Position numbers and translations under genes: made by a program. The notes beneath the pieces are model-generated. The model was not told the origin of the DNA. It worked only from the letters and a program-made list of their open reading frames with translations, and ran no database searches. Positions 1 through 31,590 of a DNA stretch of 31,590 nt are shown here, one piece after another (the stretch's first letter is position 1; every line of letters starts with the position of its first letter). Source of the stretch: a virus; IMG/VR virus record IMGVR_UViG_3300019476_000022; one strand, written 5' to 3'.

Positions 1-95
1 GCCTCGGACTCAGCTTCATCATTGGTATTTTCAACTTCTGGCTCGACAACCTCGTCGGCAGACTCCACTACTGGTGTCTCTGGCTCAGCAGGCTC
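1..95. repeat. Terminal direct repeat, identical to 31496-31590 (assembly overlap of a circular or circularly permuted genome)
   Basis: Base-by-base comparison of the two contig ends: gcctcggactcagcttcatc...ctggctcagcaggctc is present at both. Confidence 0.95.
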
Positions 96-12931: not shown

Positions 12932-14824
12932 TTAGGCTACATGTTTAATAGCCACTGCTGATGCGATGCCGCTCAAGCCACCACCTGCGAAGACTTCCTG
13001 CAAGTACTGCTGCTTGTTGTTCTCCAGCTTAAAGTTGCTGAACGCCTCGATTGAGTTGTCGCCAACAACCTTGTACTTATTCAATACGACCAGATACGCG
13101 TCGTTGTCGGCGTCGTTGGTGTCGTTGAACCATTGCGGTACAAATTTACCGGCAAGCTCCAAGTCCTCAAGAATGCTGACTCCTGGCGTGTACAGCATGT
13201 GTCCGTCGCTACCACGCTCGTCTTTCAAAGCGGTCAGGTAGCCGCGCTTAGCGATGATATACACGTCGCCCTCAGCCTCGATTAGGTCGCGTGCGTTCAA
13301 AATAGAAGTGCGGCGGCTCTCTTTGGCTTTCGGTGTGTAGGTTTTAGCGAATACGTTACCAGCTTTGGCGTCGTCTTTGACAGAGATAAACTCTTTAATC
13401 TTGTCATCAGCAGTAGCTTCGCGCCCATCGCCGATAATAGCAGCACGCTCCATGCTTGCAACGATACGCTTCGGCAACTCTGTCAAGACATACTTCAAGA
13501 TTGATCCAGTGCTTCGGTTCTTGCGCAATGTTTCCTTGTCAAGGTCGATACGCGAGTAGACATATTGACCGTTAATGACGCGGTTATCCAGAACAATATT
13601 AGCCTCTTTCTTGGTTTTGCCGGCTTTGTGACCATACGCGCCATCGGTGTTGGTGTCCCAGGCGGTGTTGTAAGCGTCAAGTCCAGTCCTGTCGAACAGG
13701 TTCCAGATTTGACCGCCCGCCTTAAACGCACTCTCGATCGCCTCGACGACTGGTGTCGGCAAGACCTTTTCAGGGTTTGTTACGCCCATGGTTGTTTTCA
13801 AATGGTCTTCCCACGCCGAACGAATGTCGCTCGTCTCTGCACCTGCGTTTTTGACAAGCACATTAGCAAAATCAATTAATGCCTTTGGTGTGTCCAGATA
13901 ATTCGTAGCAACAGTCGTTGCAACAGCTGCTGGATCAGCTGGTTCTTTAACTTGCATTTTTGCAATATCTTCCGGTTTCATTTCCGTATCCTCCTCAGGA
14001 TTGTTATCAGTTGGTTCTCCCGGCTCTGATTGCTCAGCTTCGTCAGTAGGCTCAGCCTCTGGCACGGCTTCCGGTGCCGCTGGTTCGTCAGTCTTCGTTT
14101 CAGGTTCAGTCGTCGTTTCCTCGGCTGGCTCTGCCGTCTTAGCTGCTTCCGCCTCTGCTTTCGCCTTGATTTGTTCAACCAGGCTCTGCATTGGCTTGGC
14201 ATCTGCCTGCTTTACGGCCGACATGCTAAACGCAAAGTTCATACCCATTGCATTTTGCACGCCCTCGTCTTGCTTTTGCTTCTCTGGTGCTTCAGACACC
14301 TCATCGGCAAAACCAAGCTCGACAGCCTTATCGGCAAGCATCCACGTTTCCGCTTCCAGCAACTCAGCGATTTTATCCTCGTCAAGCCCTGTCCGTTTGG
14401 CGTAGATAGGCGTGATGCCCTCCTCGATTTTCAACAGCACATCTTTGGCTTTCTCCATGTCATCAACCGTGCCCATCGCGCAAACAGACGGACGGTGAAT
14501 CATGATCATTGAGCCTGGCGACATGATAATCTTGTCGCCCGCCATCGCAATTACTGATGCAATCGACGCCGCTAAACCATCAACTCTGACAGTGACATTT
14601 CCGTTATGATTCACAAGTGCGTTATAGATTGCCAAGCCTGCGAACACGTCGCCGCCGGGGCTGTTGATAACAACTGTCAAATCGCCCGCATGCTGCTTGA
14701 GTTCTTCGCGAAAGAGGTCGGGTGTGACTTCGTCGCCCCACCAGGTATCACTCGCGATAGGCCCGTCAAGTATAAGCTCTTGATTATTCGATGAAACGGA
14801 ATTGCTCCACTTCCAGAACTTCAT
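12932..14824 (-). CDS. Fusion of ClpP-family prohead protease, acidic linker and HK97-type major capsid protein
   Basis: The N-terminus VVINSPGGDVFAGLAIYNAL...DGLAASIASVIAMAGDKIIMSPGSMIMIHRPS is a ClpP/S14-like Ser protease. Next comes an E/P/T/A-rich acidic stretch. The C-terminal roughly 300 aa are capsid-sized and sit at the capsid position. Confidence 0.8.
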   Translation of the reverse strand: MKFWKWSNSVSSNNQELILDGPIASDTWWGDEVTPDLFREELKQHAGDLTVVINSPGGDVFAGLAIYNALVNHNGNVTVRVDGLAASIASVIAMAGDKIIMSPGSMIMIHRPSVCAMGTVDDMEKAKDVLLKIEEGITPIYAKRTGLDEDKIAELLEAETWMLADKAVELGFADEVSEAPEKQKQDEGVQNAMGMNFAFSMSAVKQADAKPMQSLVEQIKAKAEAEAAKTAEPAEETTTEPETKTDEPAAPEAVPEAEPTDEAEQSEPGEPTDNNPEEDTEMKPEDIAKMQVKEPADPAAVATTVATNYLDTPKALIDFANVLVKNAGAETSDIRSAWEDHLKTTMGVTNPEKVLPTPVVEAIESAFKAGGQIWNLFDRTGLDAYNTAWDTNTDGAYGHKAGKTKKEANIVLDNRVINGQYVYSRIDLDKETLRKNRSTGSILKYVLTELPKRIVASMERAAIIGDGREATADDKIKEFISVKDDAKAGNVFAKTYTPKAKESRRTSILNARDLIEAEGDVYIIAKRGYLTALKDERGSDGHMLYTPGVSILEDLELAGKFVPQWFNDTNDADNDAYLVVLNKYKVVGDNSIEAFSNFKLENNKQQYLQEVFAGGGLSGIASAVAIKHVA

Positions 14825-17458: not shown

Positions 17459-18856
17459 TTACATAATTCCGCCCCACTCCATCACTACCTCGTGCTTCAG
17501 TTGTAGCCAAAAGCCCATCAATACCGAATCGAATATGTCAGGCGATTTGCCGAGCCGCTTCTTGATTGATTCCTTAGATTCCAACACAAACACCTTGTCT
17601 TTATATTCATGATGATGCATCTGTGCCTCCTTGATGAACTCATTGAGAAAAGGAAAGCTCTCGAGGATTTTGACCTTGCCGCTATCTAGCCCCATAGCCA
17701 ACATATATGCCACTTGTGATCGTAAATTATTAAACGCCATCAGCTCCTGTGAACGCTCAGCGTCCTCTCGGCTCTTTGGCTCGTCGCCAAATGTCAGGAA
17801 TGGATCAGGCGCAAAGCCAGACTTAAACACCGCAAACTCAGCACCGCGGTCTTTACCGCCATCGATAACGCCAACGCCAACACCAACACCGTCAACCGCG
17901 ATATTCTCGTACCCAATAGCGAAGTTATCTGAATGATCAATCAGCCACTCTGCCTGCTTGCCTGTTTCCATCTGCTCGCTTGAATCTTTCGTGATGCTGC
18001 CATCAATCAGTGTCAGGTTCTCCCAATCTGCCGCCACGCTGCGGTCAACACCATCACGTGCCACGTCGTAGCCAGTCGTTTTGCGTCCTGGCTCGTAGCT
18101 ACTCACAATCGCCTTAGCGAAAATGCTCGAACGGAATATCGTCTTGCTCTCGTCCTGGTACTCCCAGTTATTTTTGAGGTACCGCTCGACCCACCATGTC
18201 GGGTTGGTCATCATCGCGTCGATGTCTGATTGCATTTGCCACGAATCAGACAAATCGAACTCGACCACACGAATATTTGACGGCAGCGGCTCATACTTGC
18301 CATTCCCGCCATACTTCCAGCGCATGTACACCTCTTTAATATGCTCGACATCATTTGGGTTTAGGGTGATAATAGCGATGCTTGGCTGTCCGTTAGTATT
18401 GCGGCGGCCCTTACGGGACTTAGCCGTAGTAAACATCGTCAGCGACAATTCGTCGGCCTCATCAATGTGACTAGCGCTAGCGTTGATACCCTTAATTTTC
18501 TGGCCGCTCCTGTCTTTCGTCTCGTCCGCCTCCACAAAGCCAATCTTTGAGCCGTTAGGAAACTTGATTTCATAGTCTTGGCCGTTATATGTGTAATCCT
18601 CGCCCTCCTTGAAGTTCTTGCGGTCGAGCATCGTCAGATACGACGGAATCACCGATCGCTTCGCCGTGCTGATATTCTTGCGAAAAACCGTCCAGTATGT
18701 CTTCTCAAATGTGTCGCAAATATCGATGCCGACGCTCGCCGCAATGTCTGTCTTGCCAGTACCTACCGCACCAATCAAATAAATAGTATCGACTTCAGGG
18801 CAGTCGTTAATAATATCGACAACGCTTTGCTGCTTCGGCTTTAATTCTAGCGACAT
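17459..18856 (-). CDS. terL: Terminase large subunit
   Basis: 465 aa with Walker A GAVGTGKT near the N-terminus. Typical size and position upstream of the portal gene. Confidence 0.9.
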   Translation of the reverse strand: MSLELKPKQQSVVDIINDCPEVDTIYLIGAVGTGKTDIAASVGIDICDTFEKTYWTVFRKNISTAKRSVIPSYLTMLDRKNFKEGEDYTYNGQDYEIKFPNGSKIGFVEADETKDRSGQKIKGINASASHIDEADELSLTMFTTAKSRKGRRNTNGQPSIAIITLNPNDVEHIKEVYMRWKYGGNGKYEPLPSNIRVVEFDLSDSWQMQSDIDAMMTNPTWWVERYLKNNWEYQDESKTIFRSSIFAKAIVSSYEPGRKTTGYDVARDGVDRSVAADWENLTLIDGSITKDSSEQMETGKQAEWLIDHSDNFAIGYENIAVDGVGVGVGVIDGGKDRGAEFAVFKSGFAPDPFLTFGDEPKSREDAERSQELMAFNNLRSQVAYMLAMGLDSGKVKILESFPFLNEFIKEAQMHHHEYKDKVFVLESKESIKKRLGKSPDIFDSVLMGFWLQLKHEVVMEWGGIM

Positions 18857-25538: not shown

Positions 25539-26361
25539 TTTTCAAATCCTCGGCCTTACTTAGCGCTGCTTGTAAACGGTTTTGAGTAGCAGCGACGTGT
25601 GCCTCGCTTGCTTTTCGCTCTGGTTTCAAGTCTGGGAAGAAATCCTCAGGCTTTGATTGACCATCTTTGATTGCCTTGTAGACACCTCGCAAATCCACCA
25701 GATCCTCTTTCAAAGCAACCGTTAGTTGCTTGTCGATGTATTTCTCAAGATGTTCTTGCTTGACGCCCAACGATTTGAACGCGTCAAGTAGTACCGCGAC
25801 AATCTCATCGATTGGTCGCTTGTCGGATTCAGCAAGTGTTTTTCGAGTTTCAGCCACTGCCATCTCGACAATATCGCCAGGAATGACTGACAGAATACAT
25901 GCTCGTTGCCGGCGCGCTGCAAAGTTAGCTGTGGCTTCGTAAATATCTCGTCCGTCAGTTAAATCTTTGCGTCCCTGCTTCGTATCCCGTTTGTGCTCGA
26001 CAGAAAATGTTTTGGTGACGCGGGTGTTCGTTTCCAAATCCCACGCATATGCCATCATCTCTGAACGCCCGTTAGCGGTGCTTAACTCAATCACGCCAGT
26101 ATCGACATTGCCCCAGTTTTGAGCTAATGCTTCAGCCAGCCTGATTGATGGCCCAGATACGCGCTGGCCGGCGCGCGGATAGGTGTATATTGCTTGCTCT
26201 GCTAGCGTTGGTCGCTGGCAGGTTGCCTTGATTTTATTGATTGCCTCAGTCTCATTTCGCGGAAACTTCTTGGCTGATAGCATTGCCACCTGCACTTCCT
26301 GCGCCTGGCGAGCTATCATCATCTCAGCTTGAGTTGTGCGTTGTAGTTGAGTCTGTTCCAC
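25525..26361 (-). CDS. recT: RecT/Red-beta superfamily single-strand annealing protein
   Basis: 278 aa with a GTG start after GGGGGAGGTG. Directly upstream of the YqaJ exonuclease and near ssb. The family call was made by eye only. Confidence 0.6.
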   Translation of the reverse strand: MEQTQLQRTTQAEMMIARQAQEVQVAMLSAKKFPRNETEAINKIKATCQRPTLAEQAIYTYPRAGQRVSGPSIRLAEALAQNWGNVDTGVIELSTANGRSEMMAYAWDLETNTRVTKTFSVEHKRDTKQGRKDLTDGRDIYEATANFAARRQRACILSVIPGDIVEMAVAETRKTLAESDKRPIDEIVAVLLDAFKSLGVKQEHLEKYIDKQLTVALKEDLVDLRGVYKAIKDGQSKPEDFFPDLKPERKASEAHVAATQNRLQAALSKAEDLKNANS

Positions 26362-26431
26362 TTACACCTCCCCCGCCAAAGCTCGGTCGAGAAATGTCGG
26401 ATCGATTAGGTTTTCCAATTTTTCAAACAAA

Positions 26432-26638
26432 CTATTTTCGTCCATAGAACTTGCCCTCAATCCACTTCATTCCTTTGTCGAAAATCCGCAGCCACTTCGC
26501 TGCTTTGACCGACTTGTCGAAGTCATGGTCATTCAACTCGCGTAGCTTGTCAATCACCTTGTCGAGAGGCTCGCGCTTATGCACTGGCACCAGCTGAACT
26601 GGTGACGGCATCATGTTTACGTGTATCTTCATCGCCAA
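26432..26638 (-). CDS. Hypothetical early protein
   Basis: 68-aa ORF that overlaps the stop of the upstream gene. Confidence 0.55.
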   Translation of the reverse strand: MAMKIHVNMMPSPVQLVPVHKREPLDKVIDKLRELNDHDFDKSVKAAKWLRIFDKGMKWIEGKFYGRK

Positions 26639-26838
26639 ATCTCCTTTCGCGATTTTAATTCTTGGATAGTTTCATCGAACACGCCGTTGGCGAACAATAC
26701 GACCGCCAGCACCGCGATTGCCGCGAACTGCACCCACCAGAGACGCAAGTCTGTTGGCTCGCTCATTGCGATTATTGCGGCTGGTAGTCCAACTACCCAG
26801 CTAATGATTTTTTTGATCTGTTTGTTTTTCGCTGCCAT
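26629..26838 (-). CDS. Small two-TM membrane protein, first gene of the early operon
   Basis: 69 aa. GAAAGGAG RBS, then ATG at 26838. Hydrophobic helices IISWVVGLPAAIIAM and WVQFAAIAVLAVVLFANGV. Confidence 0.6.
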   Translation of the reverse strand: MAAKNKQIKKIISWVVGLPAAIIAMSEPTDLRLWWVQFAAIAVLAVVLFANGVFDETIQELKSRKEIWR

Positions 26839-27051
26839 TTTTCAGCTCCTTTCGTTTTACGTACAAGAGTGCTCGCAGTCACTCTCGTACTGTTAGATAT
26901 CTCGTCTCTGTCGTGTTTTAAGCGGTTTGTAGTCCGCTGTCTCTAATTTCTGACCAGCTGTTACTCAAATCTCTAAAAACCCGCTCTGACGTTTCAATGA
27001 AGCTACAAACGCTGAACGTACAGGATTTCTAGCCTCATTTTTACGTCAAAT

Positions 27052-27078
27052 AAAAAAGAATCGACGCGAAGTCGATTC
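27052..27078 (-). terminator. Strong rho-independent terminator
   Basis: Minus strand: GAATCGAC-ttcgc-GTCGATTC (27078-27058) followed by TTTTTTATTT (27057-27048). Confidence 0.8.
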
Positions 27079-27256
27079 ATGGTTGATAGATTTGACTAAC
27101 AGAGGTAGTCGCTGTTTATATCATGTAAGAATATTTCGTGATTTATATAAATCACTGAAAAATATTACATGATAGAGCAAACCGCTCAACCATGAATCTT
27201 GTTTTTCCAGTGATGTTAAAGGCCATTGATGGCGGTGGTCGCCGCTCATCTGAACT
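27052..27256 (-). ncRNA. Candidate ~200-nt structured RNA between promoter P2 and the 27052-27078 terminator
   Basis: Bounded by a consensus promoter and a textbook terminator. Contains a 52-bp imperfect palindrome (27121-27172). No RBS-preceded ORF is present. Confidence 0.4.
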
Positions 27257-27262
27257 GTCTTC

Positions 27263-27291
27263 AGTATAGCAAAACGCAAGCGTTCTGTCAA
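27263..27291 (-). promoter_or_regulatory. Promoter P2: TTGACA-N17-(TGC)TATACT
   Basis: -35 at 27286-27291 and -10 at 27263-27268 (reverse complement), with TGC extended -10. A 10-bp perfect inverted repeat (27273-27282 / 27294-27303) straddles the -35. Confidence 0.7.
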
Positions 27292-27362
27292 TACGCTTGC
27301 GTTATAAAATGGGCAAAAATGATACGAAAACTGTGGAAAAGTCCGCACCATTACCTCTGTTA

Positions 27363-28229
27363 TTATGATGTGGCGCTAAATTTCAATCTTTCAAAGCACG
27401 CTGCCATCTGGCCATCCAATCCATGCAAATATCGCTGCGTGATCACCGCATTTGAATGACCGAGCATCTCCTGCGATTCCATCAGTGTCGCTCCGTTTCG
27501 CTGAATGTCCGTTGCGAACGAGTGTCTGAGTGAGTGCGGGTGAAAATTGCGAAAACCCGCCAAGTAAAACGGCTGCCGCATTAAATGGCGCAACTCCTCG
27601 ACACTGAGCAATGTTCCGTTCGGCTTCTGCCATAAATAATCGTCAATACGCCGACTAACGATCCACTGTGTCAACCTTTCGCGAGCTTCTCGGCTCATAT
27701 GCACCTCCCGCCGTCTGCCACCCTTGCCAGTAAATACAATCATTCTGTCGGTGATATTTAATAGCCGCAGATTCCGCAGCTCAGTGATCCGTAAGCCGCA
27801 GTCGAACGATAATTTAATCAGTAGCCACTGTATCTGATTGCAATAACTCAACACCTGCTCGATTTGCTCCCTTGTGTAGAAAACTCGGCGAATTGGCTCG
27901 GTCTCCTTTTGTTTGACAATGTGGCGAATCTTTAATTCAGGCATCTCCACGCCCATATCTCTGAAATATCTGAACATTGCCACCACATGGCAAATTCGCG
28001 TATTGATAGTCCGGCTATTCAGACCTCGCCGTGCCTGCTCTGTAATCCAGTCGTTCACCTGCTGTGTCGTGATCTCGCTCAGACTGCCAGCTGGCACGCT
28101 AGCTCTGAAATCTCGCATCACCCAGCGTTTAGCGCTCAATGTTTGGCGGCTCATCCGGCGCGTAAACTCGCAGTACTCCAGATATTCGTCAAAAGCTTGC
28201 TCGATTGGCATAATTGTATTTTTCGTCAT
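27363..28229 (-). CDS. XerC/D-like tyrosine recombinase (integrase and/or invertase)
   Basis: 288 aa. GLRITELRNLRL (Arg), HPHSLRHSFAT (H-x-x-R), LGHSNAVITQRYLH (His/Tyr). Confidence 0.9.
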   Translation of the reverse strand: MTKNTIMPIEQAFDEYLEYCEFTRRMSRQTLSAKRWVMRDFRASVPAGSLSEITTQQVNDWITEQARRGLNSRTINTRICHVVAMFRYFRDMGVEMPELKIRHIVKQKETEPIRRVFYTREQIEQVLSYCNQIQWLLIKLSFDCGLRITELRNLRLLNITDRMIVFTGKGGRRREVHMSREARERLTQWIVSRRIDDYLWQKPNGTLLSVEELRHLMRQPFYLAGFRNFHPHSLRHSFATDIQRNGATLMESQEMLGHSNAVITQRYLHGLDGQMAACFERLKFSATS

Positions 28230-28254
28230 GATTTTAACTCCACTTAAAAAACCA

Positions 28255-28308
28255 GTTCTATATAGAATTGCTTATAACGAACCTTAAAAGCTCAATTGTA
28301 TATAGAAC
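28255..28308 (-). promoter_or_regulatory. Inverted repeat GTTCTATATA(G/C)AATTG (28255-28270 / 28293-28308) in the recombinase leader: attenuator hairpin plus U6, or a protein or recombinase binding site
   Basis: 15 of 16 complementary positions with a 22-nt loop. On the minus strand it is followed by UGGUUUUUU, then GGAG and ATG at 28229. Each arm contains the palindrome TT(C/G)TATATAGAA. Confidence 0.5.
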
Positions 28309-28314
28309 CCTCAC

Positions 28315-28343
28315 ATTTAATTTTCTGATAATTCTGTTATCAA
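28315..28343 (-). promoter_or_regulatory. Candidate recombinase promoter TTGATA-N17-TTAAAT
   Basis: -35 at 28338-28343 and -10 at 28315-28320 (reverse complement). TGATAA/TTATCA inverted repeat in the spacer. Confidence 0.45.
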
Positions 28344-28377
28344 AAATGGGCGGTGGCGGGCGGATTTGCGCTAATTT

Positions 28378-28404
28378 GAATAAAAAATACGGCCAGACGG
28401 CCGC
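28378..28404 (-). terminator. Short GC hairpin plus U-tract after gene 28524-28901
   Basis: Minus strand: CGGCC-gtct-GGCCG, then TATTTTTTATT. Confidence 0.45.
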
Positions 28405-28523
28405 TTTCATTACGCAAAACTCCCAAATACTCGCATATACCTAGGATTATTGCATAATATTTACATACAGGCAAACGCAAACAAGCCGCTACGCGAGCGA
28501 CGTCAAAATGTCAGCAGTGATTA

Positions 28524-28901
28524 CTACGTTATCAGGTTGTAGCTGTGCTTCATCTGCGCTAACTTCTCTAATCCAGCGATATTTAGTGGCAATGCTGCCT
28601 GCTCTTGCATTTTCTGCTTGTGGCGCTCCTCAGCTGCCTTAGCTTTCGCCTGTGTGATCAGTTTGCGTAGCCAATCTACCGTTTTCGCCAGATTCGCACT
28701 CGACCAGATAAACGCGAAGTACTTGCGTGGATTACGTTTTCGTTTCGCCAATTTAATCGAATAATCAAACTCTCTCGCATAATTGATCTGGCGATTTCTG
28801 AACATTGGCAGGTAATTATCGTCGGTGATTAGCTTTGTCGCCTTTCCCAACCGCTGCTGCATTTTCTGAACTCGTCGCTCGTCTATGGTTATGTTCCCCA
28901 T
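28524..28901 (-). CDS. Basic 125-aa protein of unknown function expressed from P1
   Basis: GAGGG RBS 4 nt before the ATG at 28901. K/R-rich, with a coiled-coil C-terminus. No family recognised. Confidence 0.65.
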   Translation of the reverse strand: MGNITIDERRVQKMQQRLGKATKLITDDNYLPMFRNRQINYAREFDYSIKLAKRKRNPRKYFAFIWSSANLAKTVDWLRKLITQAKAKAAEERHKQKMQEQAALPLNIAGLEKLAQMKHSYNLIT

Positions 28902-29034
28902 TTTACCCTCAAAATGCTATTTTTGCTCTTGACAAACAAAAATAGCCTCTAAAATTGATAACAATTTTTTGAGGCCAGATACAGACAGCCCACCCTGATT
29001 TAAATCTGGGCGGGCTGAAAATCCTGTACGTTCA
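28902..29034 (-). ncRNA. Structured 5' leader / candidate ~100-nt attenuated sRNA from P1
   Basis: Single-stranded 5' segment, then hairpin H1 (28986-28995 / 29008-29017, GC-rich). Next is H2 (28945-28975), followed by UAUUUUUGUUUG. H3 (28916-28925 / 28937-28946) overlaps that U-tract. Confidence 0.4.
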
Positions 29035-29040
29035 CCGTAG

Positions 29041-29069
29041 ATTATAGCAAACTGATTTTGCTTTGTCAA
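29041..29069 (-). promoter_or_regulatory. Promoter P1: perfect TTGACA-N17-(TGC)TATAAT
   Basis: -35 at 29064-29069 and -10 at 29041-29046 (reverse complement), with an extended -10 TG. Confidence 0.75.
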
Positions 29070-29070
29070 C

Positions 29071-29099
29071 AAAAACCCGCCCCCATTTTCAGGGGACGG
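29071..29099 (-). terminator. Terminator of the P3 operon, abutting the P1 -35
   Basis: Minus strand: CCGTCCCC-tgaaaat-GGGGCGG, then GTTTTTG running into TTGACA. Confidence 0.6.
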
Positions 29100-29142
29100 A
29101 AAGGTCACATGGATGCTTAAACCATGCGTTTGCAGTTTATCA

Positions 29143-29289
29143 CTATTTATTAGATTTCGCAACAGCAACGTCAGCAACGACCAGTCGTCGTATATATTCG
29201 CTAACTGTCATATTCAACTCGGTAGCACGCTTGACGATCATCTCGTGATCGCTCTCTGAAACTTTTACGTGTATGTGTTTAGTTTTCAC
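29143..29289 (-). CDS. Ribbon-helix-helix (CopG/Arc/MetJ-type) DNA-binding protein, 48 aa (missed by ORF track)
   Basis: GAAAGG, 6 nt, then GTG at 29289. Hand translation: (M)KTKHIHVKVSESDHEMIVKRATELNMTVSEYIRRLVVADVAVAKSNK*, a typical beta-strand/helix/helix RHH layout. Confidence 0.65.
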   Translation of the reverse strand: MKTKHIHVKVSESDHEMIVKRATELNMTVSEYIRRLVVADVAVAKSNK

Positions 29290-29337
29290 ACTGTACCTTT
29301 CTACCCGATACGATGCCTCGGGTGGGGCTGTTAATAT

Positions 29338-29769
29338 TTAATAAATAGCATTGACGGTAAAGTATTTCAAGCCGTCGTAGCGAATTTCAGCTTCATCGTT
29401 ACCACTCGATTCAATCTGCTCTACCGCGTTTCTGAGTGCCTCTCCAGCATTAAACACCTCTACCAGCTCGTCATCGCCATCGTAAAAGAATATAGTGCCG
29501 TTATCTACTACCGCTTCATAATCCTCATATCTGTCTAGCTCCTTCACCGTCTCAATGATATTCTCTAGCATAGCCTCTTCATCCAATTCGATGCTGATGT
29601 TCTCGATTGTAGCGTTCTCCGCTGTACTTCTGCTGAATCGTTTACGCATCTCTCTCCTCATAACCGTCTCAAGTTCTTCTATATCACCCTTCAAGCTCTT
29701 ATCTGCCTCGAAAGTGAATTCTTGTGTTGGCTGGTCACCCGTGTAGTACCACCCTGTAAATGTTGCCAT
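29338..29769 (-). CDS. Strongly acidic 143-aa early protein (function unknown)
   Basis: First protein gene downstream of consensus promoter P3. D/E-rich throughout. Confidence 0.65.
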   Translation of the reverse strand: MATFTGWYYTGDQPTQEFTFEADKSLKGDIEELETVMRREMRKRFSRSTAENATIENISIELDEEAMLENIIETVKELDRYEDYEAVVDNGTIFFYDGDDELVEVFNAGEALRNAVEQIESSGNDEAEIRYDGLKYFTVNAIY

Positions 29770-29840
29770 TTTAATTATCCTTTCTTGGCGGCGATGGTTG
29801 AGGAGCTGTTTATTTTTTAGTGTTTGATTTTATCGACCGA

Positions 29841-29924
29841 TTATTTTCTAGCTTTAGTTTTCTTAATCAACTCAAGCTTTATGGTTATTTTAAGTCTGAA
29901 AAGTTGTAATGATGTTTTAAGCAT
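29841..29924 (-). CDS. Possible 27-aa upstream ORF in the P3 leader
   Basis: GAAAGG, 8 nt, then ATG at 29924. Translation: MLKTSLQLFRLKITIKLELIKKTKARK*. Confidence 0.25.
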   Translation of the reverse strand: MLKTSLQLFRLKITIKLELIKKTKARK

Positions 29925-29990
29925 TTTTATGACCTTTCTTCTGCCGCCGAATTGTTAATTGTTGCTTGGTTGCCCCTCAACCATGTCTTT

Positions 29991-30019
29991 AGTATAGCAA
30001 ACGTGTTGCCGTATGTCAA
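29991..30019 (-). promoter_or_regulatory. Promoter P3: TTGACA-N17-(TGC)TATACT
   Basis: -35 at 30014-30019 and -10 at 29991-29996 (reverse complement). A 10-bp perfect inverted repeat (29999-30008 / 30017-30026) overlaps the -35. Confidence 0.7.
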
Positions 30020-30103
30020 CACGTTTTACCAAAAAAGTCAGAGATTTTTCGACATTTTTCATCACCCATGTTAAACCTGTGGAAAACTCACAATATTACG
30101 CAG

Positions 30104-30121
30104 TATAGTCCTACCACGACA
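30104..30121 (+). repeat. Left inverted repeat of the fibre-tip segment (TATAGTCCTACCACGACA)
   Basis: Perfect reverse complement of 30831-30848. Confidence 0.95.
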
Positions 30122-30482
30122 TCTCAACTCGCCATCTCTGTTAGCGTTCAGTGCTGACGGTGTCAGCCAGAGTATTTCAGGTAATATTTTGGTGCAGGCT
30201 GGCTGGGTGCAGTTCTGGGGTAATAACACAAAAAGACAGCCAGTGCCTGTTGTTTTTCCAAAGCAATTCAAGCAGGTTTTTTCAATGTCACCGACCTTAA
30301 TTGGCTACAAGACAGGCAGTAAAGCTACCAGCATTAGCGAATTTAATCAGGTGATCGGCAGTGGACTGAATATTGAGTCTGGCGTTGTTACGAACACCGG
30401 TACGACACTCAACGCTTCAACAACTGGCATATTTGGTGGGGCTTGGCATGGGATTTCATGGGTGGCAATTGGCGTTGCCTAA
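30122..30482 (+). CDS. Silent alternative fibre C-terminus (119 codons; no start or RBS of its own)
   Basis: The frame is open from 30075 with no ATG/GTG/TTG before the TTG at 30189. It encodes LNSPSLLAFSADGVSQSISGNILVQAGWVQFWGNN..VVFPKQF..ISWVAIGVA*, a recognisable fibre-tip signature (..QxG..V.FP..F....W.AIG). Confidence 0.7.
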
Positions 30483-31447
30483 GACTTCTTAATATACTGA
30501 ATTGTCACAAATGAAGTCTTATAACCGGATTGATCTGCGTACGTCTGGATATTGACGCTGCTATTATCAACGTAAACCGTTACTGTATAAGCTTGCTGGT
30601 CAGCAGCGTGTGGCAGGTTAATTGTTGCGCCAATACTGTCTTCTTTCGCAATGCCGCGAATATTGATGACCATGCCAAGATTTGTGATACCATGCGGCAC
30701 GGTTGTTTTGCCGGCGATCTTCAGGCCGCCCATCGCAAATGTCTTCTGGTAAATTGTGCGGCCGTCAATCCACTTCATGCCGGTGTCGACTTCTGACGTG
30801 CTGCGGTCGCCGCGGGCTGCTGGCGACAAGTGTCGTGGTAGGACTATATCATTGCCAAGTGCGTCAGAGCTAATCACGCCGTTTTTGAACATTTCAGCCC
30901 TGTTAATCCGTCCGTCAGCCAACGTGGCTGGATTACGCCTATCAGTGATGACAGAGTCGAGAATTGTCGTCGTGCCAGCGTTTACACGTATTTCGGCGAT
31001 TACTTCATATGGATTAGACGCACCAATTTTCGCCTTAATTTGTGATGGTGTAGGTGCACTTGGGTTGGTTGCTGGCGTGCCTGGAACGACAATGGCCTTT
31101 GTGCGATTCTCGTTGTTAGCGACGGCCTGCGATGCAGCCACGTTTGTGTCGATGTAGATCACCACCGCGTCAATTCGTGGATTGGCGCTATTTGCCGTGG
31201 TAACGCTCGCCTGAACAGGCTGCGTACTTAAATTGCTCACCGGGAATGTCGCCGACATAGCGTCACGCACCAGTAAGTCGTCAGGTATACCATTCTCGCC
31301 GCCGATCAGCACATTCATGCCGACAGGGCTGGACTGACGTACTCTAAAGCCGCTAATCCACGAGCCGACAAAAGCATTGCCGAGTGCGTGGAATAGTGCG
31401 CTATCAGTGGTGCGGCCACCGTTGCTATTAGGAAAGCCTAGTGCCAT
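30479..31447 (-). CDS. Receptor-binding tail fibre protein (constant aa 1-206 plus currently expressed tip aa 207-322)
   Basis: 322 aa. C-terminus GMKWIDGRTIYQKTF...HGITNLG...VTIQYIKKS resembles common fibre-tip domains. The ATG at 31447 follows the stop of the acidic-tail gene by 2 nt. Confidence 0.7.
   Translation of the reverse strand: MALGFPNSNGGRTTDSALFHALGNAFVGSWISGFRVRQSSPVGMNVLIGGENGIPDDLLVRDAMSATFPVSNLSTQPVQASVTTANSANPRIDAVVIYIDTNVAASQAVANNENRTKAIVVPGTPATNPSAPTPSQIKAKIGASNPYEVIAEIRVNAGTTTILDSVITDRRNPATLADGRINRAEMFKNGVISSDALGNDIVLPRHLSPAARGDRSTSEVDTGMKWIDGRTIYQKTFAMGGLKIAGKTTVPHGITNLGMVINIRGIAKEDSIGATINLPHAADQQAYTVTVYVDNSSVNIQTYADQSGYKTSFVTIQYIKKS
30831..30848 (-). repeat. Right inverted repeat of the fibre-tip segment, inside the fibre gene (codons D200-H206)
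   Basis: TGTCGTGGTAGGACTATA is the reverse complement of 30104-30121. Confidence 0.95.
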
Positions 31448-31449
31448 AA

Positions 31450-31590
31450 TTATTCTTCATCAGCGCTTTCAGCCTCAGTCTCGGTGGTGTCGGCCGCCTC
31501 GGACTCAGCTTCATCATTGGTATTTTCAACTTCTGGCTCGACAACCTCGTCGGCAGACTCCACTACTGGTGTCTCTGGCTCAGCAGGCTC
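31450..31590 (-). CDS. 3' end of the junction-spanning acidic-tail protein gene (continues from 1-257)
   Basis: Hand translation: ..DEAESEAADTTETEAESADEE*, with stop TAA at 31450-31452. Confidence 0.75.
   Translation of the reverse strand, partial: EPAEPETPVVESADEVVEPEVENTNDEAESEAADTTETEAESADEE
31496..31590. repeat. Terminal direct repeat, identical to 1-95
   Basis: See the feature at 1-95. Confidence 0.95.

What the first reader, a model, noticed from the sequence alone, without database searches (positions are those of the whole stretch)
27010..29037. 25-nt inverted repeat (16-nt perfect core) links the 5' end of the P1 transcript to the early-operon leader and brackets the recombinase
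cGCTGAACGTACAGGATTTCTAGCC at 27010-27034 (+) is the reverse complement of GGCTGAAAATCCTGTACGTTCACCg at 29013-29037, with 22 of 25 positions matching. The perfect cores are 27013-27028 and 29019-29034. A 16-mer match by chance is negligible in 31.5 kb. There are two non-exclusive readings. (a) RNA-level: both sites are transcribed on the minus strand. P1 RNA would begin at about 29034 with GGUGAACGUACAGGAUUUUCAGCC. That sequence is complementary to GGCUAGAAAUCCUGUACGUUCAGC, which lies in the early leader just downstream of the 27052-27078 terminator. This resembles the antisense immunity RNAs of P4 (CI RNA/seqA-seqC) and P1/P7 (C4). (b) DNA-level: the repeats flank a 2-kb block (recombinase, gene 28524-28901, promoter P2). 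Inversion would re-aim P2 and change what P1 reads into.
Basis: partly seen in the sequence, partly recalled or inferred. Interest (0 to 1): 0.7.

Follow-up and report, generated by a model that had tools for sequence, protein, structure and literature searches.

The report
Antisense RNA switch in TM7 phage
The inverted repeat is real and most likely marks a small RNA, made next to the integrase of a phage of the ultrasmall oral bacteria Saccharibacteria, that base-pairs with the leader of the phage's early genes; related phages carry entirely different but always matching pairs, as expected if the RNA sets immunity specificity.

Summary
The repeat exists as described; about 22 nt are conserved. 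A 16-mer alone is not rare: 11 of 100 shuffles reach it. The window is a complete circular temperate siphovirus of Candidatus Saccharibacteria (TM7).

The right arm is the 5' end of a roughly 100-nt transcription unit: a 12/12 consensus promoter, a seed, a hairpin and an intrinsic terminator. The left arm lies in a hairpin just after a terminator in the early-operon leader.

attP (palindrome 27119-27174) lies between the arms, so in a prophage they sit about 30 kb apart at opposite ends.

Relatives keep this architecture with unrelated sequences. I found seven independent seed/target sequence types whose two arms match. Six are matched on one contig and one only probably; an eighth seed/target set is a compensated variant within one of these types. 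All are inverted. Every seed starts 5-9 nt after the -10 hexamer. Two close relatives differ by two fully compensatory double substitutions.

No inversion of the 2-kb block occurs in any of 21 informative loci, although a neighbouring segment does invert.

Best reading: a trans-acting antisense RNA that silences early transcripts and sets immunity specificity. It works like P4 CI or P1/P7 c4 but is not a member of those families. Transcription and the sign of the effect are inferred, not shown.

The parts
29041..29069 (-). Promoter of the small RNA (TTGACA-N17-TATAAT, with TG before the -10)
   Evidence: 12/12 consensus match; the hexamers are kept in relatives, while the spacer and the -10 to +1 stretch vary.
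28934..29035 (-). Putative small RNA of about 100 nt: 5' seed, hairpin 1, terminator hairpin and U-tract
   Evidence: near-invariant block in 37 distinct relatives, starting at the predicted +1; fold with a free 5' end, hairpin 28986-29017, and terminator hairpin 28944-28976 followed by AUUUUUGUUUG; no Rfam family matches here.
29013..29034 (-). Seed (right arm of the repeat): UGAACGUACAGGAUUUUCAGCC
   Evidence: the first 6 nt are unpaired with probability of about 0.9.
28524..28901 (-). Small basic all-helical protein (125 aa, motif YLPMFRNRQ), always found immediately downstream of the RNA gene; function unknown
   Evidence: no Pfam or PHROG match; the family is confined to Saccharibacteria phages. 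AlphaFold2 pLDDT 86, no structural match.
28389..28404 (-). Intrinsic terminator between the small gene and the recombinase
27363..28229 (-). Tyrosine recombinase (integrase), 288 aa
   Evidence: Phage_integrase 1.6e-28 plus the SAM_1 domain; phrog_1. The integrase type changes together with the att type in relatives.
27263..27291 (-). Near-consensus promoter downstream of the integrase, aimed across attP into the early leader; a perfect 11-bp palindrome (27273-27303) overlies its -35
   Evidence: 11/12 match; invariant in relatives, including the spacer.
27119..27174 (.). attP: 56-bp palindrome; the crossover lies in the central TTATATAA (about 27139-27155)
   Evidence: I2; homology to relatives breaks here from both sides; phage/host junctions with many different host flanks.
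27048..27078 (-). Intrinsic terminator (8-bp stem plus U6), just inside the prophage end
   Evidence: invariant in relatives.
27013..27034 (-). Target (left arm): GGCUAGAAAUCCUGUACGUUCA in the early leader
   Evidence: (invariant although the next 100 nt or so exist as two unrelated alleles).
26997..27038 (-). Leader hairpin that presents the target; the loop UACGUU is complementary to the free 5' end of the RNA
   Evidence: loop unpaired probability of about 0.9; net interaction energy -7 to -10 kcal/mol for the first 12-17 nt.
26629..26838 (-). First gene of the early (recombination/replication) operon
   Evidence: followed by a phrog_3657 protein, a YqaJ exonuclease and SSB.

Best explanation
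The right arm is the 5' seed of a small RNA of about 100 nt, transcribed on its own from a consensus promoter next to the integrase module and ended by an intrinsic terminator. The left arm is its target, displayed in the loop and 5' arm of a hairpin in the leader of the early (recombination/replication) operon, 14 nt after a terminator that sits just inside the prophage end. The free 5' tail of the RNA meets the hairpin loop and then zips into a duplex of about 22 bp. I infer that this silences any transcript entering the early operon. Such transcripts could be host read-through in a lysogen, or come from the post-integrase promoter of an incoming or excised circular genome. The silencing step is probably duplex-triggered cleavage and decay or premature termination. 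The RNA would therefore act as an immunity factor whose seed sequence defines the immunity group. What is shown: the repeat, the gene-like anatomy, the position of attP, the conservation, and the co-variation of seed and target. What is inferred: that the RNA is made, that pairing is RNA-RNA, the negative sign of the effect, and the molecular step affected.
For: (1) Anatomy. A 12/12 promoter ends 6 nt before the seed, and a terminator hairpin with a U-tract lies about 100 nt downstream. (2) Selection on the transcribed part. The block from +1 to the terminator is nearly invariant in 37 distinct relatives while the promoter spacer and discriminator vary; type 4 shows the same pattern. The target and its upstream terminator are invariant although the adjacent 100 nt or so has two unrelated alleles. 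(3) Block covariation. Relatives with the same architecture carry unrelated seeds, and each has the complement of its own seed after the terminator(s) just inside att. Type 2: 27/27 in two contigs. Type 3: two pairs, 17/17 and 18/19, in L128. Type 4: 14/14 in two contigs. Type 6: 11-12 nt in three contigs from three sources. Type 9a: 15/15. (4) Nucleotide covariation. Contigs 166234 and 175229 differ at two seed positions, and both changes are compensated in their targets about 30 kb away (G-C to A-U, U-A to C-G). This was predicted before it was checked. (5) Geometry. All pairs are inverted, that is complementary in the same transcriptional sense. Every seed starts 5-9 nt after the -10 hexamer, and all targets but one follow 1-3 terminators and lie in hairpin loops. 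(6) No flanking protein tracks the seed. The small gene between the arms is 93% identical between types 1 and 2, and L075 combines type-1-like upstream genes with a type-2 seed. (7) Accessibility. The RNA 5' tail and the target loop are both unpaired, and the net binding energy is favourable; cognate type 2 RNA and target cofold (ddG -18.9) whereas crossed pairs do not.
Against: There is no expression data: the promoter, the +1 and the terminator are all predictions. Within type 1 both arms are invariant, so covariation comes only from other types. The non-Watson-Crick positions do not favour one strand (about as many G.U as C.A in the proposed sense), so the strand of pairing is not proven by substitutions. 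The target lies after, not before, the leader terminator and 175 nt upstream of the first start codon, so neither classic attenuation nor a block of the ribosome-binding site explains the effect. It is unclear how the early operon is ever expressed through the terminators, because no promoter-like site lies between the target and the first ATG. The probable type-5 cognate pair has a central A x C mismatch. The targets of types 7, 8 and 10 could not be fetched.
Confidence: 0.72

Rival explanations
1. The same RNA-RNA pairing occurs but with the opposite sign. The small RNA opens the leader hairpin and activates or stabilises early transcripts, for example by exposing an antitermination or processing element, so it is a lytic activator rather than an immunity factor.
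For: The pairing evidence says nothing about the sign of the effect. The target is sequestered in a stable hairpin. The early operon needs some way to be expressed past 1-3 terminators, and no internal promoter is seen.
Against: The RNA gene sits in the lysogeny module, next to the integrase and under a constitutive-looking consensus promoter. Diversification of seeds into many specificity types, with changes concentrated in the seed, is the pattern expected of immunity determinants. The target lies downstream of the terminators, so pairing cannot relieve them.
Confidence: 0.13
2. The arms are two copies of an asymmetric operator bound by a phage repressor, one at the +1 of the 29069 promoter and one in the early leader. 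The complementarity would then be incidental to their opposite orientation.
For: An operator at +1 is common. The neighbouring promoters at 27291 and 30019 carry palindromes that look like protein operators, so protein control does exist here.
Against: All seven independent types have the inverted orientation; random orientation would give 1/128. Point changes in one site are matched by the complementary change in the other site in close relatives, which a shared protein does not require. No nearby protein covaries with the seed. The conserved unit is the whole stretch from +1 to the terminator, not just the site. The targets lie in RNA hairpin loops.
Confidence: 0.07
3. The arms are recombination sites or terminal inverted repeats. 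Either the recombinase inverts the 2-kb block, or the arms are the ends of a mobile integrase cassette.
For: Inverted repeats bracket a recombinase. Seed type, integrase type and att type change together in most relatives. Site-specific recombination also demands identical cores, so it too would give covariation.
Against: None of 21 loci with anchors on both sides, and none of 63 with three anchors, shows the block inverted, whereas a neighbouring segment bounded by an 18-bp repeat is found in at least three arrangements in the same data. The recombinase's site is the attP palindrome. In a prophage the arms are about 30 kb apart. The small gene inside the block is 93% conserved between types whose arms are unrelated, so the block is not inherited as a unit. 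The 288-aa recombinase has no arm-binding domain.
Confidence: 0.04
4. The repeat is a chance match.
For: An exact inverted 16-mer arises in about 11% of shuffled windows.
Against: Both arms are conserved across dozens of relatives, and matching pairs recur in unrelated sequence types at the same positions.
Confidence: 0.01

Closest known systems
Phage-plasmid P4 CI RNA (seqB pairing with seqA/seqC); from general knowledge, not retrieved here
   Same: It is an RNA, not a protein, that acts on the leader of the early/replication operon by base pairing. It acts in trans on incoming genomes and so confers immunity. All of these genes run in one direction.
   Different: P4 CI is processed out of the very transcript it regulates and has two flanking targets. 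Here the RNA has its own promoter and terminator 2 kb away (30 kb in the prophage) and only one target. There is no sequence or structure similarity and no Rfam match. The host is a CPR bacterium.
P1/P7 c4 antisense RNA (review PMC12197685)
   Same: The seed sequence of a small RNA determines heteroimmunity between related phages. Specificity changes through matched changes in the RNA and its target.
   Different: c4 targets the ribosome-binding region upstream of the antirepressor gene and is cut from the same operon. Here the target is a hairpin 175 nt upstream of the first early gene with no start codon or Shine-Dalgarno at the site, and no antirepressor is involved.
Cis-antisense phage RNAs: lambda OOP and P22 sar (PMC12197685)
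   Same: These are short, terminator-ended RNAs from strong promoters. The duplex with the mRNA lowers expression; for OOP this goes through RNase III.
   Different: They are transcribed from the opposite strand of their target and so are perfectly complementary by construction. Here the two sites are separate loci, and their complementarity has to be maintained by selection.
Excision-dependent or integration-dependent rewiring (Tn916 circular-joint transcription; mycobacteriophage integration-dependent immunity); from general knowledge
   Same: attP lies between a strong promoter (27263-27291) and the genes it would drive, so integration disconnects them and circularisation reconnects them.
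   Different: In those systems the att position itself is the switch. Here it is combined with terminators and a matching antisense RNA. This link is my inference.

Membership tests
C4/CI antisense RNA family (P1/P7 c4, P4 CI, N15 CA; Rfam C4) | Sequence and structure similarity to the family covariance model | tested here: not met
   a scan of the whole window against Rfam 15 at E<=1 gives no match in 26000-30000. The only hit is an unrelated sub-threshold one at 18070-18207.
C4/CI antisense RNA family (P1/P7 c4, P4 CI, N15 CA; Rfam C4) | The RNA is processed out of the same transcript that carries its targets | tested here: not met
   The seed starts 6 nt after the -10 of its own 12/12 promoter, directly downstream of another terminator (29076-29100), and ends at its own terminator. 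The target is 2 kb away, beyond two further terminators. This is anatomy only; no RNA data are available.
C4/CI antisense RNA family (P1/P7 c4, P4 CI, N15 CA; Rfam C4) | Two target boxes (seqA/seqC or a2/b2), and/or a target overlapping a ribosome-binding site | tested here: not met
   there is a single target in the window. It lies 175 nt upstream of the first ATG with no Shine-Dalgarno. The type 3 relative does have two RNAs with two targets.
Trans-encoded base-pairing small RNA (general class) | Own promoter and Rho-independent terminator; non-coding | tested here: met
   present in every type examined. No ORF is present in the 100-nt unit.
Trans-encoded base-pairing small RNA (general class) | An accessible seed complementary to an accessible site in the target RNA | tested here: met
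   the 5' tail and the target loop are both about 90% unpaired, and the net energy is favourable.
Trans-encoded base-pairing small RNA (general class) | Seed and target co-vary in relatives | tested here: met
   seven independent types. Two compensatory double substitutions separate contigs 166234 and 175229.
Trans-encoded base-pairing small RNA (general class) | The RNA is expressed and changes target expression | not testable with these tools
   No transcriptome data were available.
Invertible DNA switch (fim-type, shufflon or Gin/Cin-type) | Both orientations of the bracketed segment occur in natural populations | tested here: not met
   21/21 and 63/63 loci are collinear. As a positive control, the segment 30104-30848 is found in several orientations.
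Invertible DNA switch (fim-type, shufflon or Gin/Cin-type) | The repeats are the recombinase's crossover sites | tested here: not met
   the recombinase's crossover maps to the palindrome 27119-27174, whose sequence is unrelated to the arms.

The most novel reading that the evidence does not exclude
Temperate phages of Saccharibacteria use a programmable, purely RNA-encoded immunity specificity. A promoter-proximal seed of 12-27 nt pairs with a matching loop at the other end of the prophage, and this works together with an attP placed between the early promoter and the early operon. Integration would then unplug the lytic genes. Terminators plus the antisense RNA would filter read-through from the host, often from a tRNA gene. 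Swapping seed and loop would create new heteroimmune lineages. This would be the first regulatory RNA system defined in phages of the Candidate Phyla Radiation, and a ready-made orthogonal set of RNA repressors for these genetically intractable bacteria.
Probability: 0.4. Interest if true: 0.8.

Novelty: new variant of a known kind. Interest (0 to 1): 0.68.

Why it matters
Prophages are common in oral Saccharibacteria, but they are known only as catalogue entries; PMC7739484 describes nine phage groups with no regulatory analysis. How these phages maintain lysogeny is unknown. This finding gives a concrete, testable mechanism, supported by unusually clean natural covariation. It suggests that immunity groups can be read directly from sequence as seed/loop types. 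It also shows an organisation not described for the classical RNA-immunity phages: the RNA and its target lie at opposite prophage ends, across attP. Finally, it offers a family of at least ten orthogonal seed types that could serve as tools in CPR bacteria.

Tried and rejected
- **Annotated records:** megablast of the region against annotated phage and plasmid records found no match.
- **Rfam:** nothing was found in this region.
- **Cofold:** RNAcofold and duplexfold on long inputs were uninformative for type 1, because nested-structure prediction cannot place a duplex inside stable hairpins. I replaced them with an opening-energy calculation.
- **Seed variant in L040/L047:** I searched for a compensated target for the rare U-to-C change. 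Only the two short RNA-side contigs exist, so the test is uninformative.
- **Genome-collection loci:** prophages in chromosomes cannot show both arms within 10 kb.
- **First systematic scan:** its threshold was too strict and missed types 4 and 6; I redid it.
- **Type 5:** the exact 16-mer search failed because the cognate target has one mismatch.
- **Metagenome scan:** scanning for the target scaffold returned 22 integrated attL ends and 5 loop variants but no same-locus seeds.
- **Small YLPMFRNRQ protein:** there was no Pfam, PHROG, PDB sequence or Foldseek match despite a confident model, so its role (excisionase, RNA partner or other) stays open.
- **Co-resident prophage test in TM7-H1:** the two copies are a 2.9-kb duplication rather than two independent prophages.
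- **G.U versus C.A asymmetry:** the counts are balanced, so this does not assign the strand.
- **Protelomerase/telomere idea for the 56-bp palindrome:** I rejected it once the phage/host junctions showed it is attP.
- **Leader-peptide idea:** short ORFs at the target in types 1, 2 and 6 are not general and lack a Shine-Dalgarno in types 1 and 6.
Full report
**Observation.** The repeat is present exactly as described. One search reports arms 27009-27034 and 29013-29038 (26 nt, 88% complementary), and the sequence read confirms the 25-mers, the 22/25 count and the perfect 16-nt cores.
- The core occurs only twice in the window.
- The chance estimate was too optimistic. In 100 dinucleotide-preserving shuffles, the longest exact inverted repeat reaches 16 nt or more in 11 cases. 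The longest one in the real window is a different 18-mer.
- The repeat's length alone would not make it remarkable. What follows does.

**What the window is.**
- The window carries an exact 95-nt terminal direct repeat, so it is a complete circular genome of about 31.5 kb.
- All genes are on the minus strand.
- It encodes a portal, a ClpP-protease/capsid fusion, a tape-measure protein, a CW_7/LysM endolysin, SSB, a YqaJ exonuclease and a 288-aa tyrosine recombinase.
- It has no close relative among annotated phage or plasmid records, but dozens among IMG/VR contigs of about 31 kb.
- A scan of species-representative genomes places the family in Candidatus Saccharibacteria (TM7, including Nanosynbacter).
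- The literature knows TM7 prophages only as catalogue entries (PMC7739484).

**Anatomy around the arms (minus strand, reading from high to low coordinates).**
1. A terminator (29100-29076) ends the upstream operon.
2. A 12/12 consensus promoter follows, with a TG extension (29069-29041).
3. The right arm begins 6 nt after the -10 hexamer.
4. The predicted transcript has a free 5' end, a hairpin (29017-28986), and a second hairpin (28976-28944) followed by AUUUUUGUUUG. That makes a unit of about 100 nt.
5. Next comes a 125-aa gene of unknown function, another terminator (28404-28389), and the recombinase (28229-27363).
6. A second near-consensus promoter (27291-27263) follows.
7. Then comes a 56-bp palindrome (27174-27119).
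8. A terminator (27078-27058 plus U6) follows.
9. The left arm starts 14 nt later, inside a hairpin.
10. The first early gene starts 175 nt further on (26838).

**attP lies between the arms.** A BLAST of all fetched loci against the window shows that homology breaks at about 27139-27155 in many relatives, when approached from either side. Other relatives read straight through. The junctions read phage...GTGATTTATATATATCA|host and host|TGATATATATAAATCAC...phage, with many different host flanks. The palindrome is therefore attP, and the window is the circular form. In a prophage the RNA gene, the recombinase and the 27291 promoter lie at one end. The terminator, the target and the early operon lie at the other end, about 30 kb away. 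The recombinase acts on the palindrome, not on the arms.

**Conservation within type 1.** Across 86 sequences (37 distinct), the block from the predicted +1 to the terminator is almost invariant. The promoter spacer and the stretch between -10 and +1 vary freely. In the leader, the terminator and the 22-nt target are invariant, although the next 100 nt or so exist as two unrelated alleles. The conserved duplex is 22 nt: 20 Watson-Crick pairs, one G.U and one mismatch.

**Covariation between types.** Relatives that keep the small gene have the same upstream layout of terminator, consensus promoter, 20-30 nt of 5' sequence, and a hairpin with a U-tract. The 5' segments are unrelated between groups. 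Wherever both ends of one phage could be read, the leader carries the complement of that phage's own seed.

| Type | Where | Match |
|---|---|---|
| 2 | Two contigs; target next to a tRNA fragment and a terminator | 27/27 |
| 3 | L128 (recombinase only 23% identical); two RNA genes, each beginning at the +1 of its own promoter | 18/19 and 17/17 |
| 4 | Two contigs; after three terminators, in a hairpin loop | 14/14 |
| 6 | Three contigs from IMG/VR, ENA and Logan; after a tRNA gene and two terminators | 11-12 nt |
| 9a | Contig 166234; seed CTAGAGCCTTAGTTG, target CAACTAAGGCTCTAG | 15/15 |
| 9b | Contig 175229; seed CTAAAGCCTTAGCTG, target CAGCTAAGGCTTTAG | 15/15 |

- For types 9a and 9b I predicted the matching sequence before reading it.
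- The two 9a/9b differences are compensated on both partners (G-C to A-U and U-A to C-G).
- Type 5 probably pairs 17/18, with a central A x C mismatch.
- All pairs are inverted. Every seed starts 5-9 nt after the -10 hexamer.
- Direct-orientation controls show no comparable signal.

**RNA, protein or DNA.**
- A shared protein operator does not require complementary changes at both sites, and it does not explain a constant inverted orientation. No neighbouring protein tracks the seed either: the small gene between the arms is 93% identical between types 1 and 2, and L075 combines type-1-like upstream genes with a type-2 seed.
- DNA inversion is contradicted directly. All 21 loci with anchors outside and inside the arms, and all 63 with three anchors, are collinear. 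The same data show the segment bounded by the 18-bp repeat TATAGTCCTACCACGACA (30104-30121 / 30831-30848) in at least three arrangements.
- The RNA reading also fits the accessibility results. The first six nucleotides of the RNA and the six-nucleotide target loop are both about 90% unpaired, and the net interaction energy is -7 to -10 kcal/mol for the first 12-17 nt. Cognate type 2 RNA and leader cofold (ddG -18.9), whereas crossed pairs do not.
- The mismatch pattern (G.U versus C.A) does not discriminate between strands.

**Mechanism.** I propose that the RNA pairs with any transcript entering the early operon and silences it.
- In a lysogen, such transcripts can come only from host read-through, often from a tRNA gene directly upstream. 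The terminators and the RNA would together keep the lytic genes quiet.
- In a superinfecting or excised circular genome, the 27291 promoter is reconnected to the early operon across attP. That promoter is invariant and carries an operator-like palindrome. The resident RNA would then confer immunity specific to its seed type.
- The concentration of differences in the seed among close relatives fits diversifying selection on immunity specificity.
- The step affected (cleavage and decay, or termination) is not determined. The target lies after the terminator and far from any start codon. I could not explain how the early operon is expressed past the terminators.
- An activating role for the same pairing remains possible.

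**Comparison with known systems.** Functionally this resembles P4 CI and P1/P7 c4, where an RNA seed sets immunity (PMC12197685; P4 from general knowledge). It is not a member of that family.
- There is no Rfam match.
- The RNA has its own promoter and terminator instead of being processed from the target transcript.
- There is a single target, and it is not at a ribosome-binding site.
- It also differs from cis-antisense RNAs such as OOP and sar, because the two sites are separate loci.
- I file it as a new variant of RNA-based phage immunity, in phages of a CPR bacterium.

Noticed in passing
window 30104-30121 and 30831-30848 (segment 30104-30848, and the adjacent 30831-31590 plus 1-320): A perfect 18-bp inverted repeat, TATAGTCCTACCACGACA, bounds a segment that relatives carry in at least three arrangements (counts 16, 8 and 10). 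This looks like a shufflon-type invertible region overlapping the C-terminus of the 322-aa ORF 30479-31447, which could mean host-range switching. No second recombinase turned up among the roughly 20 window ORFs I scanned against Pfam; the rest were not scanned.
   Followed up: partly
window 27119-27174: attP is a 56-bp palindrome. Integrated relatives sit in many different host sites of the type TGATATATATATCA, so integration has low site specificity. Two attP core alleles exist (TTTATATAAA and ATATAATTATAT). Other lineages of the family integrate into tRNA-Gly, tRNA-Thr or another tRNA instead.
   Followed up: partly
window 27263-27303: A near-consensus promoter lies between the integrase and attP and points across attP into the early operon, so integration disconnects it from the early genes. 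A perfect palindrome, AACGCAAGCGT-N9-ACGCTTGCGTT, overlies its -35 and is invariant in relatives. It is a likely protein operator.
   Followed up: partly
window 29991-30026: A third near-consensus promoter (30019-29991) carries a different palindrome, AAACGTGTTG-N8-CAACACGTTT, over its -35. It drives a 143-aa ORFan and a 48-aa NikA/ribbon-helix-helix-like protein (29143-29289), which is a candidate repressor.
   Followed up: no
window 27074-27094, 27178-27198, 29794-29806, 29973-29985: The motif CATGGTTGAG occurs four times: as an inverted pair flanking attP, and as an inverted pair between the 30019 promoter and the 143-aa gene. It may be a binding site for an accessory or regulatory protein.
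   Followed up: no
window 27327-27343 and 30073-30089; also L128 about 500-515, L142 9864-9881, L169: The conserved motif CTGTGGAAAA(G/C)T lies about 40 nt upstream of several of these promoters, in distant relatives as well.
   Followed up: no
window 28255-28308: Two near-palindromes, GTTCTATATAGAAT and ATTGTATATAGAAC, lie immediately upstream of the integrase start, with a TATATA centre like the attP core. A similar palindrome lies upstream of the integrase in L077.
   Followed up: no
window 1-95 and 31496-31590: An exact 95-nt terminal direct repeat shows that the window is a complete circular assembly.
   Followed up: yes
L154 and L155 (CP026537.1, Candidatus Saccharibacteria TM7-H1 chromosome): A 2.9-kb, 99.5% identical copy of the RNA gene, small gene and integrase module occurs twice in inverted orientation, about 31 kb apart on one chromosome.
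   Followed up: no
L242 449-778, L243 449-778, L246 4126-4452: Related prophages carry a gene with an Acb2/Tad1-hairpin domain (anti-CBASS type) next to the endolysin. L242 and L243 also carry a SNF2, PAPS-reductase and ParB-like cluster upstream of the RNA gene.
   Followed up: no
window 12932-14824: A single 630-aa ORF fuses a ClpP-type prohead protease domain to a major capsid protein domain.
   Followed up: no
L317-L338 (metagenome attL ends): The target hairpin scaffold CGGGACA...TGTTCCG is invariant while its loop occurs in five variants (GGCTCT, GGCTTT, GACTTT, GACTCT, CGGGTTT). The two GAC variants predict seed types not yet seen.
   Followed up: partly
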